From the human T2T-CHM13v2.0 reference genome, Homo sapiens, in assembly GCF_009914755.1 (NCBI RefSeq), contig NC_060946.1: a DNA stretch of 64,000 nucleotides; one strand, 5' to 3'. Both the position numbers and the translations under genes were made by a program. This document shows positions 22,493 to 53,510 of this stretch, piece after piece (the first letter of the stretch is position 1; the number at the start of each line of letters is the position of its first letter). The notes under the pieces were generated by a model. It saw only the letters and a list, made by a program, of their open reading frames with translations. It had not been told where the DNA came from and searched no databases.

Positions 22493-22923
22493 TTTATTAA
22501 GGGTTTACTGGTACAAGGAGAGGGGCTGGATGATTTGGGGTGGGAGGGGATCTCTGTTCTGGGATCCTGCAGCTCCAGGCCCCCATGGGTGGGGTGAGGG
22601 TCAGGGACCTAAGAACATTCTTCAGGGGCCACTGTCTTCTCCACAGTGCTCTCTTGTGTGTGACCTTACAGCTGTAGCTGCTGCAGGACCTCCACTGGTC
22701 GGGTGTCAGGCTCAGGTCGCTTCTGGCTGTGTGCTTGTTGCTCTGTTTGGAGGTCTTGGTGACTTCCGTACCCTGGGTGACAGGGGTGCTGTTTGCCTTC
22801 CAGGCCACCGTCACAGCTCCCGGGTAGAAGCCACTCATGAGACACAGCAGTGTGGCCTTTTGGCTTGGAGCTCCTCAGAGGAGGACGGGAACAGAGTGAC
22901 CAAGGGGGTGGCCTTGGGCTGGC
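22493..22923 (-). pseudogene. IGLCOR22-2: Immunoglobulin lambda constant-region orphon pseudogene (unprocessed C exon plus 3'UTR)
   Basis: Minus strand: acceptor cccacag, then [21 protein letters not shown] / frameshift / [22 protein letters not shown]...SYSCKVTH / frameshift / [13 protein letters not shown] with TAG at 22609-22611; AATAAA at 22493-22498. The symbol is assigned from recalled position next to RFPL3. Confidence 0.9.
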
Positions 22924-23182
22924 CTGTGGGTGGGCGAGCGGCAGGAGGTCAGAATCCTGTTGTGTACCTGGGAGCCCCCTGACCTCAGTGTATGAAGAGG
23001 GGTCAGGCCCCCTCAGTGCCAGTGTAGGACCCCTCAGACATGGTCCACAGTGTCTCAGAAGGGTGTGACATGAGGTTCCTAAAACAACTCTCTGTCATTC
23101 AGGGAACCTCCGAGCCTGTCCCCTGCCCACCAGTGGTGGCAGTTAATTTGGTATTCATTTCCAAGGCTGGAGAAGGATGTAA

Positions 23183-23697
23183 TTTTTTTTCTTTTCTTTT
23201 GGTGAGACAGGGTCTTACTGTGTTGTCCAGGTTGGAGTGACCTGGCGTGGTCTCTGCTCACTGCTAATTTTTGTATTGTTTGTAGAGATGAGGTCTTCCT
23301 GTGTTGTCCAGACTCGTCTCAAATTCCTGGGCTCAAGGGATCTTCCTGCCTTGGCCTCGCAAAGTGCTGGGATTACAGATGTGAGCTACTGCATCCAGCC
23401 CCCTTTTTTTTTTTTGAGATGGTGTCTCACTCTGTTGCCCAGGCCGGAGTGCAATGGCACAATCTTGGCTCAGTGCAACTTCTGCCTCCCAGGTTCAAGC
23501 GATTCTCCTGCCAAAGCCTCCCAAGTATCTGGGATTACAGGCGTGTGCCACCACGCCTGGCTAATTCTTTTGTATTTTCAGTAGAGATGGGGTTTCACCC
23601 ATCAGGCTGGTCTCGAACTTTTGATGACCTCAGATGATCCACCCACCTTGGCCTCCCAAAGTGCTGGGATTACAGGCATGAGCCATCGTGCCCAGCC
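23183..23697 (-). mobile_element. Two tandem antisense Alus (internally deleted AluJ-like 23183-23400; AluS-like 23404-23697)
   Basis: Reverse-complement Alu consensus twice. Confidence 0.9.
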
Positions 23698-24002
23698 TCT
23701 CAGCTCCTAATTCTTATGTTCATCAATCAGTCTCTTGCTGGGGTTCCCCTAGGAGGTGGTGAAATGACCCCAGCTCGCTGTTCCTCACATGGGTGCTGCC
23801 ACGTCACTGGCTCAGGCTCAGCTGCTGGGTCACCAGGAGAATGGACCCTTCCTCCACCTCAGCTCAGAGCACAGTGATGATTCGTGACTTTCCCAATAGA
23901 ACTTCAAATCTCTGAGGACGGGGGGTGGGGGGATGTGCTTGAGTGTTTGTACTCATGGTCTTGTTCTCGGAGTGACAAAGCTGGAACACAATACCTCTAT
24001 GC

Positions 24003-24375
24003 ATGAAAAGGTTGTCACTTGTCACAACTAACAGGCTTTCACCTCAAGGAAATTTTCTTCCCTTGTGTACTTTTCCCCTGGCAGTGGACATGGCTGCACT
24101 CTTCCAAGAAGCAAGCAGCTGTCCCGTCTGCTCAGACTATCTGGAAAAACCAATGTCCCTGGAGTGTGGATGCACCGTCTGCCTCAAGTGCATCAATTCG
24201 CTGCAGAAGGAGCCCCATGGGGAGGATCTGCTTTGCTGTTGCTGTTCCATGGTCTCTCAGAGGAACAAAATCAGGCCCAATCGGCAGCTAGAGAGGCTGG
24301 TTTCCCACATCAAGGAACTGGAGCCCAAGATGAAGAAGATTCTACAGATGAACCCAAGGATGCGGAAGTTCCAAG
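24003..24375 (+). CDS. RFPL3: Ret finger protein-like 3, coding exon 1 (N-terminal extension, RING-like domain, RFPL-defining motif)
   Basis: [43 protein letters not shown]...; donor G|gtaagg at 24375/24376; 373 nt, phase 1. Confidence 0.96.
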
Positions 24376-51546: not shown

Positions 51547-52151
51547 GTGAATGTCCATCCCCTCCAACTCACAGTGGTGACTGTCTCCGACTAGCTGTGT
51601 CTTGAGGATGTCACCGAAGCCCTCTGAGCCTGTTTGCTCCTTTGTAAAGCAGTGAGATGAACCTCATAGGGTTCTTATGGGAACTAAATGGCCTAAGGCA
51701 TGGCAAGCAGGTCCCAAGTGCCTGGCTCTGTGAAAAGGCTGCTGAGCATGCTATAGTTCACATTTATTATCTTTCCCTTCAATGGAGCTCTGGGCATGCT
51801 GTCTCAATGGCCCATATCCCTGTTTGGAAAAGCACACAGAAAGCAAATCTGTTTTTGCATTTGTAAAGGATGTCTGTGATTCTTTCTAACTGGTCTTTGT
51901 CCTTGACAGAGAAAGAACAGGGGTCCCTTGGGTCCTGAAGGAGGGGCCCCAGGCTCACTCAGGTATCTGTAGAGGTTCTGGTTGAGGTTCATTCATTCAA
52001 CAGATATATATGAAAAATGTAATTTATGCAGTCACTTTTCCAGTGGCTTGGCATAATTTAGTAAAGAAAGCAGATGACAATACCTGGGCCTCAATTCTAC
52101 TTGAAGTGTCAGATACTTCCAGTAGAGCGCATAAGCAGGTCATATCCACAG

Positions 52152-52250
52152 AATGTTAGATGTGACAGCCTCATGGCCTCCTCTAGGTATGGTGGCATCT
52201 TCCCAGGTTCTGGGACTAGGATGACATAGCCCAGGAACAAGTATAAACTG
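52152..52250 (+). pseudogene. Next RALGDS-like exon, disrupted
   Basis: ccacag|..RCDSLMASSRYGGIFPGS / frameshift / D*DDIAQEQV* versus RALGDS RCDALTASSRYGCILPYSDEDGGPQDQLK. Confidence 0.8.
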
Positions 52251-52834
52251 GGTGGATTTAGGGTTCTGAAGGGTCTTTTGACTTCCAAACATACGTGGAG
52301 GAAATATGTGGACTGTAGCTGGGAAGAGACTGAAAAAACCCTGGGTCTCATCTCTCTTATGATTCCCATGAGAAAGTTGAGATCTAGGGACTTTCCCTAC
52401 AAAAGGAAAGGAGAGTTGTAGATGGCACCTTAGGTCCCCAGTAAAATATAGGGGAGGCTATGGCCAGGGCCGACCCCCAAGAGAACCATTCCCAGCACAG
52501 GGGTTTCCTATCTCTGCCTGTCCTCCATGCCACATCTGCCTCTCCCAACCCAAGCACCAAGTGGCCCAGAGCTGGAGTTTTGATGGGCAACCTGCTCACA
52601 CATCTGCCTGGAGCTGCAGTTGTGAGTGCCCAGGTGCTCAGCACTGTGTGCCAGGGCCTTTGGGAAGAGAATGTCAGTAGGAAGCCGGGGCCCGCAAGGG
52701 TCTGTATAGCCCTGCTGCATGGCCAGGTCTGCCCCTATCAAGACAGCACAGATGGCTGGGGCTGGAGTGGGGCTGTCCTCTACACAGGAAGCAACAAGCC
52801 AGGGGCCCAGAACCACAATAAAAAGCCCCGCAAG

Positions 52835-53138
52835 GGCCAGGCGCGGTGGCTCACGCCTGTAATCCCAGCACTTTGGGAGGCTGAGGCGGGCGAATCACGA
52901 GGTCAGGAGATCAAGACCATCCTGGCTAACACGGTGAAACCCCATCTCTACTGAAAATACAAAAAATTAGCTGGGCATGGTAGCGGGCGCCTGTAGTCCC
53001 AGCTACTCGGGAGGCTGAGGCAGGAGAATGGCGTGAACCTGGGAGGCGGAGCTTGCAGTGAGCCGAGATTCCGCCACTGTACTTCAGCCTGGGCGACAGA
53101 GCGAGACTCAGTCTCAAAAAAAAAAAAAAAAAAAAAAA
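52835..53138 (+). mobile_element. AluY-type with TSD aaaagccc(c/t)gcaagg
   Basis: Alu consensus; matching flanks. Confidence 0.94.
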
Positions 53139-53510
53139 GCCCTGCAAGGCATGTGTAGGAGGGAGGCCAGGCCTCTGGTTCTGCTGTGCCCTCCATCACC
53201 AGCACCACCACCTACCTCCATTTTGTTCACCCGGCCCCATGGATACAAAAACTCTGCCGTGTATTTAGAATAAGAAAGGTAGTAAAGCTATGAAGACTTT
53301 GTCTTTTGGGCCGCTATTCCTTAAACCTCCCCATACTCCCTCTTCAATGTGTTCCACTATCCATTCATCTAACAGCCTGATTACAACTCCCTGGGTGCTC
53401 TCCAAGTAAGAGGGGTATTTAGGGTTTTGCTGAGTGCAGGGGTGATGCCTAAATGGGTGGATGAATGGACAAACTGACAAAGCAACAGACGAAAGGAAAC
53501 ATTCCAAAAC

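What the first reader, a model, noticed from the sequence alone, without database searches (positions are those of the whole stretch)
22493..53500. The relics together look like a stranded edge of the ancestral Ig-lambda neighbourhood ending at a synteny breakpoint beside RTCB
Seen: an IGLC, two IGLV, a POM121-like and a RALGDS-like relic within 30 kb, the last stopping about 1 kb from the RTCB 3' end. Established (from memory): these families co-occur at 22q11.2 (IGL, POM121L, IGLL1, RGL4); in mouse, Rtcb neighbours Ascl4/Prdm4 (human 12q23), and Slc5a4, which lies just proximal to this locus in human, neighbours Zfp280b, a gene embedded in human IGL. Inference: the orphons may be residue left in place by the rearrangements that built primate chr22 rather than transposed copies. 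The old 12/22 junction would then lie at ~52.7-53.4 kb, and RFPL3 would have grown inside this unstable zone.
Basis: inference. Interest (0 to 1): 0.75.

Follow-up and report, generated by a model that had tools for sequence, protein, structure and literature searches.

The report
Ig-lambda relics at 12/22 breakpoint
The stretch between SLC5A4 and RTCB is a string of old, broken copies of genes from the antibody lambda-chain neighbourhood that stops right beside RTCB, and matching broken copies lie on chromosome 12, which suggests that an ancient chromosome exchange in primates cut this cluster in two.

Summary
Four of the five claimed relics are real: a lambda constant exon (22497-22874, minus strand), a complete germline lambda V pseudogene (42605-43110), a partial V (45217-45395) and the 5' part of an RGL4 copy. 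The POM121-like relic was not found. The RGL4 relic is larger than annotated (49228-53247) and ends 251 bp from the RTCB 3' end.

The relics are genomic copies, not retrocopies, and they are old. K2P distance to their closest 22q11.2 relatives is 0.14-0.26. Only the C relic/RFPL3 unit has a young twin, at RFPL2 (K2P 0.064).

Published maps place IGL directly beside SLC5A4 in goat, cattle, pig and horse, with RGL4-ZNF70-VPREB3 on another lambda-gene border. They also place a primate-specific 12/22 breakpoint between SLC5A1 and RTCB.

New here: the reciprocal interval on chromosome 12, distal of ASCL4, holds chr22-type relics of similar age. These are an IGLV-cluster segment, a non-overlapping RGL4 3' fragment, an RFPL-flank block found otherwise only on chr22, two RFPL pseudogenes and a POM121 hit.

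Best reading (0.58): an old lambda-neighbourhood duplicon cluster at the end of ancestral segment 22b was split by the 12/22 translocation. Whether the relics were left in place or copied in remains open. No non-primate genome could be aligned.

The parts
21286..23132 (-). Lambda constant-region relic with 3' flank (C exon ORF 22497-22874). It lies just upstream of the main RFPL3 exon 1.
   Evidence: Pfam C1-set 2.3e-19 and PDB lambda C matches. DNA identity over 22400-23000: 96% to chr22:32663925-32664527 beside RFPL2, 83% to chr22:24020278 and chr22:25780802, 79-82% to the IGLC cluster. Local blast over the whole unit gives 93% to the RFPL2-side copy. K2P 0.209 to the 24.02 Mb copy, 0.263 to an IGLC copy, 0.064 to the RFPL2-side copy.
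23708..27289 (+). RFPL3 gene unit (annotated exons 23798-24375 and 26183-27092), one member of a duplicated RFPL unit.
   Evidence: 92-95% to chr22:32654513-32657657 (RFPL2) and 89-94% to chr22:29901866-29905838 (RFPL1). The next best match is chr12:107845056-107847841 at 73-78%. Local blast extends that chr12 copy to 107848032.
27428..37097 (+). RFPL 3' flank followed by a module related to 22q11.2 low-copy repeats. It carries the RFPL3S exons.
   Evidence: Collinear pieces at 70-80% match six copies at chr22:18.87-19.26 and 21.58-21.73 Mb. They also match chr22:23905123-23910786 and chr13:13.69 Mb. The RFPL2 copy (88-94%) covers the stretch to about 29914.
39994..44362 (+). IGLV relic 1: upstream flank, leader, V exon (42735-43061), RSS-like signal and downstream V-unit flank. 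An L1 piece is inserted at about 40307-40876.
   Evidence: 39994-43185 is collinear with chr22:22486425-22489314 at 80-85%, K2P 0.14-0.20. 42494-44362 matches the flanks of other IGLV units at 65-72%. V-set 2.3e-9. RSS-like signal seen.
45217..45395 (+). IGLV relic 2: partial V exon (FR1 to FR2) that abuts an Alu at 45434.
   Evidence: About 70% to V exons at chr22:22488879-22489038 and 22483920-22484101. PDB V-domain matches at E 1e-5 to 6e-8.
46819..48700 (+). Low-copy element ('E') interrupted by an Alu and a microsatellite. It is partly old interspersed repeat. Related copies lie in the IGLV cluster, just 3' of RGL4, and on chr12.
   Evidence: 47354-48700 matches chr22:22506439-22507367 at 72-78%. 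47372-48609 matches chr22:24147280-24148096 at 68-71%. The chr12 relatives were seen. This is a weak part, because repeat content was not classified.
49228..53247 (+). RGL4 5' relic. RefSeq annotates only 52583-53232 as RGL4P1. Three Alus (50389-50701, 50901-51195, 52833-53140) are present only in the relic.
   Evidence: Blocks 49228-50090, 50090-50316, 50788-50906, 51218-52816 and 53147-53247 match chr22:24134414-24139576 at 77-85%. K2P 0.17-0.22.
53248..53497 (.). Interval that should hold the 22b/22a (12/22) junction. It lies between the last chr22q11-type homology and the annotated RTCB 3' end.
   Evidence: The RGL4 homology ends at 53247. 53141-56320 has no other copy in the genome apart from one short interspersed repeat. 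The RTCB 3' end at 53498 comes from the supplied gene table.

Best explanation
The SLC5A4-RTCB interval is the proximal half of an old cluster of lambda-neighbourhood duplicons. It holds an IGLV unit, a V fragment, a lambda-like C exon, an RGL4 5' copy, an RFPL gene and LCR22-type filler. I infer that this cluster sat at the distal end of ancestral segment 22b, next to SLC5A4. That is where the IGL locus itself lies in goat, cattle, pig and horse.

I infer further that the primate reciprocal 12/22 translocation broke inside or at the edge of this cluster. It joined the proximal half to RTCB, with the junction within 53248-53497. It carried the distal half to 12q23.3, where it now lies 19-137 kb distal of ASCL4.

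Shown: the relics, their ages, their collinear non-coding homology, the sharp end beside RTCB and the matching chr12 relics.

Inferred: that the two clusters were once one, and that the pieces arose as duplications within one chromosome before the break. Later, in catarrhines, the C relic/RFPL unit was copied again (RFPL2/RFPL3, K2P 0.064).
For: 1. Age and kind. All relic-source pairs share non-coding flanks and have K2P 0.14-0.26. Every Alu examined inside a relic is absent from its partner.

2. Edge. The chr22q11-type homology stops at 53247, and 53141-56320 is single copy.

3. Literature. There is a primate-specific break between 22q 30.83 and 31.11 Mb and between 12q 106.67 and 107.03 Mb, in the paper's coordinates (PMC2681463). 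SLC5A4 flanks the 5' end of IGL in Laurasiatheria (PMC5899754; PMC9614664).

4. Reciprocal side. A 173-aa bHLH ORF that I take to be ASCL4 lies at chr12:107738707-107739228. Distal of it lie:
- chr12:107758498-107761776, 88% over ungapped columns, K2P 0.128, to IGLV-cluster DNA at chr22:22507778-22511122. This is the single best hit in the genome.
- chr12:107770784-107771536, 77.9% over 760 bp, K2P 0.215, to RGL4 24143440-24144172. This is the best non-self hit at 78%, against 67-71% for the other long matches. It does not overlap the part of RGL4 held by the window.
- chr12:107772004-107778415, whose non-repeat matches lie only on chr22 (32.607-32.620, 29.868-29.874, 25.791-25.794 and 24.077-24.079 Mb) at 77-87%. 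The one exception is a 602-bp insert identical to chr7.
- Two RFPL pseudogenes at 107845056-107848032 and 107851895-107853998. The first has both exons and intron sequence, 59-64% aa identity, stop codons and K2P 0.22-0.27. It is the closest relative of RFPL1/2/3 outside chr22.

5. Strand. The IGLV-type segment, the RGL4 fragment, the RFPL-flank block and both RFPL pseudogenes lie on the + strand of chr12, and the window's V and RGL4 relics lie on the + strand of chr22. That is what a simple reciprocal exchange predicts. The POM121 hit on chr12 is on the minus strand.
Against: - No non-primate or strepsirrhine genome could be aligned, so the once-contiguous state is inferred from the human genome and from papers.
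- The pieces are not collinear between the two halves or with 22q11.23. On chr12 an IGLV-type segment lies proximal of the RGL4 fragment, so the two RGL4 pieces are not simply the two ends of one cut gene.
- K2P values differ (0.128 against 0.17-0.27), so the pieces may not share one origin.
- RGL4-, RFPL- and POM121-like sequences also occur elsewhere: chr7, chr16, chr20 and acrocentric arms; chr19, chr3 and chr8; chr5 and chr6.
- Mouse gene order as I recall it (Sgsm1 next to Wscd2) needs further inversions to fit.
- The chr12 interval was only sampled: 107730001-107740000, 107742001-107780000 and 107840001-107860000.
Confidence: 0.58

Rival explanations
1. Pure in-place residue. The V and C relics are the actual leftover end of the ancestral IGL locus. 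They stayed beside SLC5A4 when rearrangements carried the main locus away, and no copying was involved.
For: SLC5A4 flanks the 5' V end of IGL in goat, cattle and pig, and in horse and cetartiodactyls. The closest relative of V relic 1 (chr22:22486425-22489314) lies near the low-coordinate end of the IGLV-like hits, which span 22444970-22851971 for that query. The V relics point from SLC5A4 towards the RGL4 relic, matching the published order SLC5A4 - V end of IGL. The relics are old.
Against: The RGL4 5' relic duplicates 5 kb that is intact at 22q11.23, next to what I take to be ZNF70 and VPREB3. So at least that piece is a copy. The C relic lies on the SLC5A4 side of the V relics and on the opposite strand. 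It sits inside a unit that was copied again with RFPL2. The C tree gives a three-way split without an outgroup, so it cannot show an ancient in-place lineage.
Confidence: 0.2
2. Later duplicative transposition. After the translocation, both breakpoint regions independently took up copies of 22q11.2 segments, as evolutionary breakpoint regions often do.
For: Kemkemer et al. report that primate-specific breakpoints are enriched for segmental duplications (PMC2681463). The pieces are a mosaic from at least four separate 22q11.2 sites. The RGL4 and POM121L families are scattered over many duplication-rich regions.
Against: The chr12 interval is the only place outside chr22 that holds the RFPL-flank block and the IGLV-type segment at high identity. 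Independent arrival of four chr22 families in the one roughly 350-kb interval that was once joined to 22b would be a large coincidence. K2P of 0.13-0.27 is as old as or older than the date I recall for the translocation (the anthropoid stem).
Confidence: 0.12
3. Templated insertions at the junctions. The translocation was a complex, replication-based event that copied short stretches of nearby 22q11.2 DNA into both new junctions.
For: Both junction regions hold kilobase-sized fragments from the IGLV cluster and from RGL4 in the same order and strand: V-type then RGL4-type.
Against: The fragments differ significantly in divergence (0.128 against 0.22). The relic zones span 32 kb and more than 100 kb and include whole gene units such as RFPL with its intron and a V gene with 2.7 kb of upstream flank. 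That is far more than typical junction insertions.
Confidence: 0.06

Closest known systems
Human IGL orphons on 22q outside the main locus (IMGT: two IGLV and two IGLC)
   Same: The window's V and C relics are germline-type IG gene segments outside the IGL locus on 22q. This matches what the IMGT review lists (PMC7555362, passage read). The chr18 hit of the C query fits the processed IGLJ-C/OR18 gene named there.
   Different: IMGT treats them as a catalogue entry. Their link to the SLC5A4-IGL adjacency of other mammals and to the 12/22 breakpoint was not found in the papers searched. The RefSeq row named IGLCOR22-2 (42605-43058) covers a V-type gene, not the C relic.
Primate-specific evolutionary breakpoint of the ancestral 12/22 associations (Kemkemer et al. 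2009)
   Same: The position is the same on both chromosomes at their resolution of a few hundred kb. The general association of such breakpoints with duplications also holds.
   Different: Here the chr22 side is narrowed to a 250-bp interval beside RTCB. The chr12 side is narrowed to the 18.5 kb (107739229-107757750) between ASCL4 and the first chr22-type piece. Both sides are shown to carry related relics.
RFPL1/RFPL2/RFPL3 duplications on chromosome 22 (Seroussi et al. 1999; Bonnefont et al. 2008)
   Same: RFPL3 and its flanks are copied at RFPL2 (88-95%) and RFPL1 (88-94%). This agrees with what I recall of those papers.
   Different: Neither paper could be opened, so I cannot say whether they describe the chr12 RFPL pseudogenes or the C relic inside the RFPL2/3 unit.
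22q11.2 low-copy repeats (LCR22)
   Same: Window 27.4-37.1 kb is collinear with a module present in six LCR22-region copies.
   Different: Identity is only 70-80%. The window copy is therefore an old relative, not a member of the recent, highly identical LCR22 set.

Membership tests
IG orphon (IMGT sense) | An IG V or C gene segment lying outside the major locus | tested here: met
   C1-set and V-set domains. The window lies at chr22:32.8 Mb, while IGLV/IGLC hits of the main locus lie at 22.44-23.35 Mb.
IG orphon (IMGT sense) | Germline genomic structure, not a processed copy | tested here: met
   V relic 1 has a leader, intron, V exon and RSS-like signal, plus 2.7 kb of homologous upstream flank. 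The C relic shares about 0.9 kb of 3' flank with other C units. No J-like FGxGT motif occurs anywhere in 20000-54000.
Segmental duplication (usual definition: at least 1 kb at 90% identity or more) | At least 90% identity over at least 1 kb | tested here: not met
   Relics against their 22q11.2 sources give 77-88%. Only the C relic/RFPL3 unit against the RFPL2 locus meets it, at 93-95%.
Evolutionary breakpoint region | The two flanks belong to different ancestral chromosomes | not testable with these tools
   Taken from PMC2681463. No non-primate genome is held here.
Evolutionary breakpoint region | The reciprocal product carries the matching other half | tested here: inconclusive
   The chr12 interval distal of ASCL4 carries IGLV-type, RGL4, RFPL-flank and RFPL relics of similar age. 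Exact complementarity of the two halves is not shown.
RalGDS/RGL4 (RasGEF) gene | RasGEF catalytic domain | tested here: not met
   No Pfam hit in the relic ORFs tested. The relic matches only chr22:24134414-24139576, upstream of the RasGEF exon at 24140939-24141211. It is a 5' gene fragment.
POM121 / POM121L | POM121 Pfam domain or DNA homology to POM121L loci | tested here: not met
   None of 148 genome matches falls in the window. Blastn against three POM121L loci gave nothing between 39953 and 45438, and the matches I read were in Alu-masked stretches.

The most novel reading that the evidence does not exclude
The chr22 RGL4 5' relic and the chr12 RGL4 3' fragment are the two parts of a single RGL4-like gene that the anthropoid 12/22 translocation cut. 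If so, the breakpoint is fixed to 251 bp beside RTCB. It would also follow that the primate RFPL1/2/3 genes descend from an RFPL cluster that straddled the ancestral 22b/12b junction. The chr12 pseudogenes would be its stranded other half.
Probability: 0.3. Interest if true: 0.7.

Novelty: new member of a known kind. Interest (0 to 1): 0.55.

Why it matters
The 12/22 exchange is one of the landmark rearrangements that define the anthropoid karyotype. In the paper I read it is placed only to a few hundred kb.

If the split-cluster reading holds, the break is placed to about 250 bp on chr22 and 18.5 kb on chr12. It would also explain why lambda orphons sit 9.5 Mb from the IGL locus. And it would give the primate-specific RFPL1/2/3 genes a datable outgroup, the chr12 pseudogenes.

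It is also a clean example of a breakpoint falling inside an already duplicated zone rather than creating one. Every claim is directly testable with existing lemur, tarsier, marmoset, dog and cow assemblies.

Tried and rejected
1. POM121-like relic. Pfam on the ORFs, a protein search of the genome, a Pfam POM121 genome scan and local tblastn/blastn all gave nothing in the window. The only hit of 44658-44874 is a 216-bp match at chr12:121081608 (77%), which I did not explain.

2. 'A shared Alu unites the C relic with IGLL1.' BLAST first suggested a shared 120-bp element. The alignment showed something else. The window has its own truncated Alu with its own target-site duplication. The RFPL2-side copy has a different, full-length Alu about 80 bp away. 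The IGLL1 and IGLL3P copies share a third. The idea was dropped.

3. 'The RGL4 fragment is the first chr22-type piece on chr12.' This held for 107762001-107770800. It failed when 107752001-107762000 was searched, because an IGLV-type segment lies proximal of it.

4. Complementarity of the 'E' element between the window and chr12. I rejected this because chr12 also has a diverged left part.

5. Papers by Seroussi 1999 and Bonnefont 2008 are not held.

The IGLL1-RGL4 interval was therefore only sampled, and the names IGLL1 and IGLL3P for the copies at 24.02 and 25.78 Mb are recalled, not annotated.

8. The C tree has no outgroup and resolves only three clades.
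Full report
**What is in the window**

The window is T2T chr22:32798001-32862000. Between the first exon of SLC5A4 (to 21011) and the 3' end of RTCB (53498), almost all non-repeat DNA has relatives in the lambda-chain neighbourhood of 22q11.2.

*C relic.*
- ORF 22497-22874 (-) is a C1-set domain (Pfam 2.3e-19). It aligns to human lambda constant regions.
- With its flanks the unit spans 21286-23132.
- A 601-base query around the exon gave 15 matches: itself; a 96% copy at chr22:32663925-32664527; 83% copies at 24020278 and 25780802; 79-82% copies in the IGLC cluster at 23.318-23.346 Mb; an 80% copy at 24085567; two pieces at 21.04 Mb; and one on chr18.
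- I take the 24.02 and 25.78 Mb copies to be IGLL1 and IGLL3P. Those names are recalled.
- The IMGT review lists four 22q orphons (two V, two C) and a processed J-C gene on chr18 (PMC7555362, passage read). These relics are therefore catalogued.

*V relic 1.*
- ORF 42735-43061 (+) is a V-set domain (2.3e-9). Its best PDB matches include a chain labelled IGLV5-37.
- It keeps a leader, an in-frame stop near the end of FR3, and an RSS-like heptamer / 23-bp spacer / nonamer.
- Its homology to chr22:22486425-22489314 runs from 39994 to 43185 at 80-85%. It is broken only by an L1 piece in the window and a 284-bp insert in the partner.
- Its downstream flank, to about 44362, resembles the flanks of other IGLV units at 65-72%.

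*V relic 2.* 45217-45395 is only an FR1-FR2 fragment.

*RGL4 relic.*
- It is much larger than the annotated RGL4P1. Five collinear blocks from 49228 to 53247 match chr22:24134414-24139576 at 77-85%.
- Three Alus are present only in the relic, and a 2.2-kb stretch is present only in the partner.
- The partner locus carries a RasGEF exon 1.4 kb further on. The relic is therefore the 5' part of an RGL4 copy.

*RFPL3 and the filler.*
- RFPL3 itself (23708-27289) has copies at RFPL2 and RFPL1.
- 27428-37097 is collinear at 70-80% with a module found in six LCR22-region copies and at chr22:23.905 Mb.

*POM121-like relic.* It could not be found by any of four tests.

**Age and kind**

The relics are genomic copies with introns and flanks, not retrocopies.

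| Pair | K2P (gaps excluded) |
|---|---|
| RGL4 relic vs RGL4 | 0.168, 0.168, 0.224 |
| V relic 1 vs chr22:22.486 Mb | 0.140-0.199 |
| C relic vs 24.02 Mb copy | 0.209 |
| C relic vs 25.78 Mb copy | 0.213 |
| C relic vs one IGLC copy | 0.263 |
| C relic vs RFPL2-side copy | 0.064 |

- With primate substitution rates as I recall them, 0.064 fits a catarrhine duplication. 0.13-0.27 fits roughly 45-100 million years. These dates are rough.
- A tree of eight C copies gives three well-supported clades: the two orphons; the 24.02 and 25.78 Mb copies; and the IGLC genes. They meet at one point. Without an outgroup the order cannot be read.
- Every Alu examined inside a relic is absent from its partner.

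**What the literature adds**

- Kemkemer et al. 2009 (PMC2681463, passages read) assign 22q 17.14-30.83 Mb with 12q 107.03-132 Mb to one ancestral chromosome. They assign 22q 31.11-49.6 Mb with 12pter-106.67 Mb to another. They mark the breaks as primate-specific. By coordinates I recall, 30.83-31.11 Mb is SLC5A1 to RTCB, and 106.67-107.03 Mb is PRDM4/ASCL4 to WSCD2.
- The goat antibody-locus paper states that the IGLV clusters are 'flanked on the 5' end by SLC5A4', as in cattle and pigs (PMC5899754, passage).
[quoted passage not shown] This holds in horse and cetartiodactyls except beluga. The same study places VPREB3-ZNF70 next to a lambda gene or IGL in all eutherians but mouse (PMC9614664, text and legends read).
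- That paper's figures are not held, and its supplement gave only gene names.
- So the non-primate order is SLC5A1 - SLC5A4 - IGL, with RGL4-ZNF70-VPREB3 on a lambda-gene border. The window reads SLC5A4 - C, V, V relics - RGL4 5' relic. That is a small-scale echo of this order.

**The edge beside RTCB**

The chr22q11-type homology ends at 53247. A genome search with 53141-56320 found only itself and one short interspersed repeat, in 50 matches. The junction between the relic zone and the RTCB block therefore lies in 53248-53497.

**The other side, on chromosome 12**

I asked whether the missing 3' part of the RGL4 copy lies at the reciprocal breakpoint.

*The RGL4 fragment.* A search with RGL4 24140001-24147000 gave 94 matches. 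The best non-self match, at 78%, was chr12:107770784-107771536 (+). The other long matches, on chr7, chr16, chr20 and the acrocentric arms, were 67-71%. Local alignment gives 77.9% over 760 bp and K2P 0.215 against 24143440-24144172. This does not overlap the part of RGL4 held by the window.

*Position relative to ASCL4.* A 173-aa bHLH ORF lies at chr12:107738707-107739228 (Pfam HLH 6.7e-19). I take it to be ASCL4, so the RGL4 fragment lies 31.6 kb distal of it.

*Further searches of this interval.*
- 107742001-107752000 holds only Alu-type matches, 106 in all.
- 107758498-107761776 is 88% identical over ungapped columns, K2P 0.128, to IGLV-cluster DNA at chr22:22507778-22511122. That is 18 kb from the partner of V relic 1. 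In a search with this piece alone (49 matches) the next best hits lie just 3' of RGL4, at 24147084-24157866 and 67-77%. Its middle kilobase is an old interspersed repeat.
- 107762001-107770800 holds only interspersed repeats, 82 matches.
- 107772004-107778415 matches only chr22, apart from repeats and one 602-bp insert identical to chr7. The chr22 places are 32607207-32620489 between SLC5A1 and RFPL2, 29867763-29873565 near RFPL1, 25790948-25793534 near the 25.78 Mb C copy, and 24076609-24078593 between the 24.02 Mb C copy and RGL4. Identity is 77-87%.
- An RFPL3 query (29 matches) found the closest relative outside RFPL1/2 at chr12:107845056-107847841, with a second weaker copy at 107851900-107853954. 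Locally the first spans 107845056-107848032 and the second 107851895-107853998. The first has both exons and intron sequence, 59-64% aa identity, stop codons and K2P 0.22-0.27.
- The Pfam POM121 scan found a broken copy at chr12:107875775-107876389 on the minus strand. I give this little weight because the family is widespread.

**Reading**

Four chr22-type families of about the same age as the window's relics lie in the one interval of another chromosome that, by the published reconstruction, was once continuous with 22b. All four lie on the strand that a simple reciprocal exchange predicts.

The simplest account is that one duplicon cluster spanned the 22b/12b junction and the translocation split it. 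This also gives a relative date, because the relics would predate the break.

It does not settle how the cluster arose.
- The V relics could be true leftovers of an IGL locus that once lay beside SLC5A4.
- The RGL4 and C pieces must be copies, since intact versions keep their old neighbours at 22q11.23.

**What does not fit neatly**

- On chr12 the IGLV-type segment lies proximal of the RGL4 fragment. The order across the supposed break is therefore V-type, RGL4 5' | IGLV-type, RGL4 3'.
- That pattern is as well explained by two decayed tandem units as by one gene cut in two. I therefore keep the 'cut gene' only as the bold reading.
- The K2P of the IGLV-type piece (0.128) is clearly lower than the rest.
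- Mouse order as I recall it needs extra inversions.
- Only about 68 kb of the roughly 350-kb chr12 interval was read.

**Novelty**

No paper linking these orphons, RGL4P1 or the chr12 relics to the 12/22 breakpoint turned up in the full-text searches. The two RFPL papers most likely to bear on it could not be opened. The relics themselves and the coarse breakpoint are known. The fine placement and the chr12 counterpart may be new.

Noticed in passing
window 42605-43058 and 22497-22874: The RefSeq row named IGLCOR22-2 (a constant-region orphon) covers a V-type gene with leader and V exon. The real C-type relic at 22497-22874 has no row in the supplied table. The names may be swapped or misplaced in the T2T annotation.
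   Followed up: partly
window 42587-42644, 43249-43660, 49172-50259: The first exon of lncRNA LOC339666 coincides with the leader region of V relic 1. Its last exon lies in the promoter-proximal part of the RGL4 relic. The transcript therefore seems to be built from two relics and may use the old V promoter.
   Followed up: no
L032:1000-1601 (chr12:107773000-107773601): A 602-bp stretch is 100% identical to chr7:112731403-112732005. It interrupts the old chr22-type homology, so it looks like a very recent insertion or transduction.
   Followed up: no
window 21615-21735; L002, L004, L005: Three different Alu insertions lie within about 80 bp of each other in paralogous C-unit flanks. One is in the window copy. 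One is in the RFPL2-side copy. One is shared by the 24.02 and 25.78 Mb copies, apparently at the same target site as the RFPL2-side one. This may be an insertion hot spot.
   Followed up: partly
It is unexplained.
   Followed up: no
chr22:25898461-25898998 and 25780802-25793534 (T2T): A V-like hit, a C copy and a copy of the RFPL-flank block lie together near 25.8-25.9 Mb. This is another small lambda-relic cluster, which may mark a further old rearrangement border.
   Followed up: no
chr22:24147084-24157866 (T2T): Several tandem, diverged copies of the low-copy element 'E' lie just 3' of RGL4. Related copies are in the IGLV cluster, in window 46.8-48.7 kb and on chr12 at 107.757-107.767 Mb.
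   Followed up: partly
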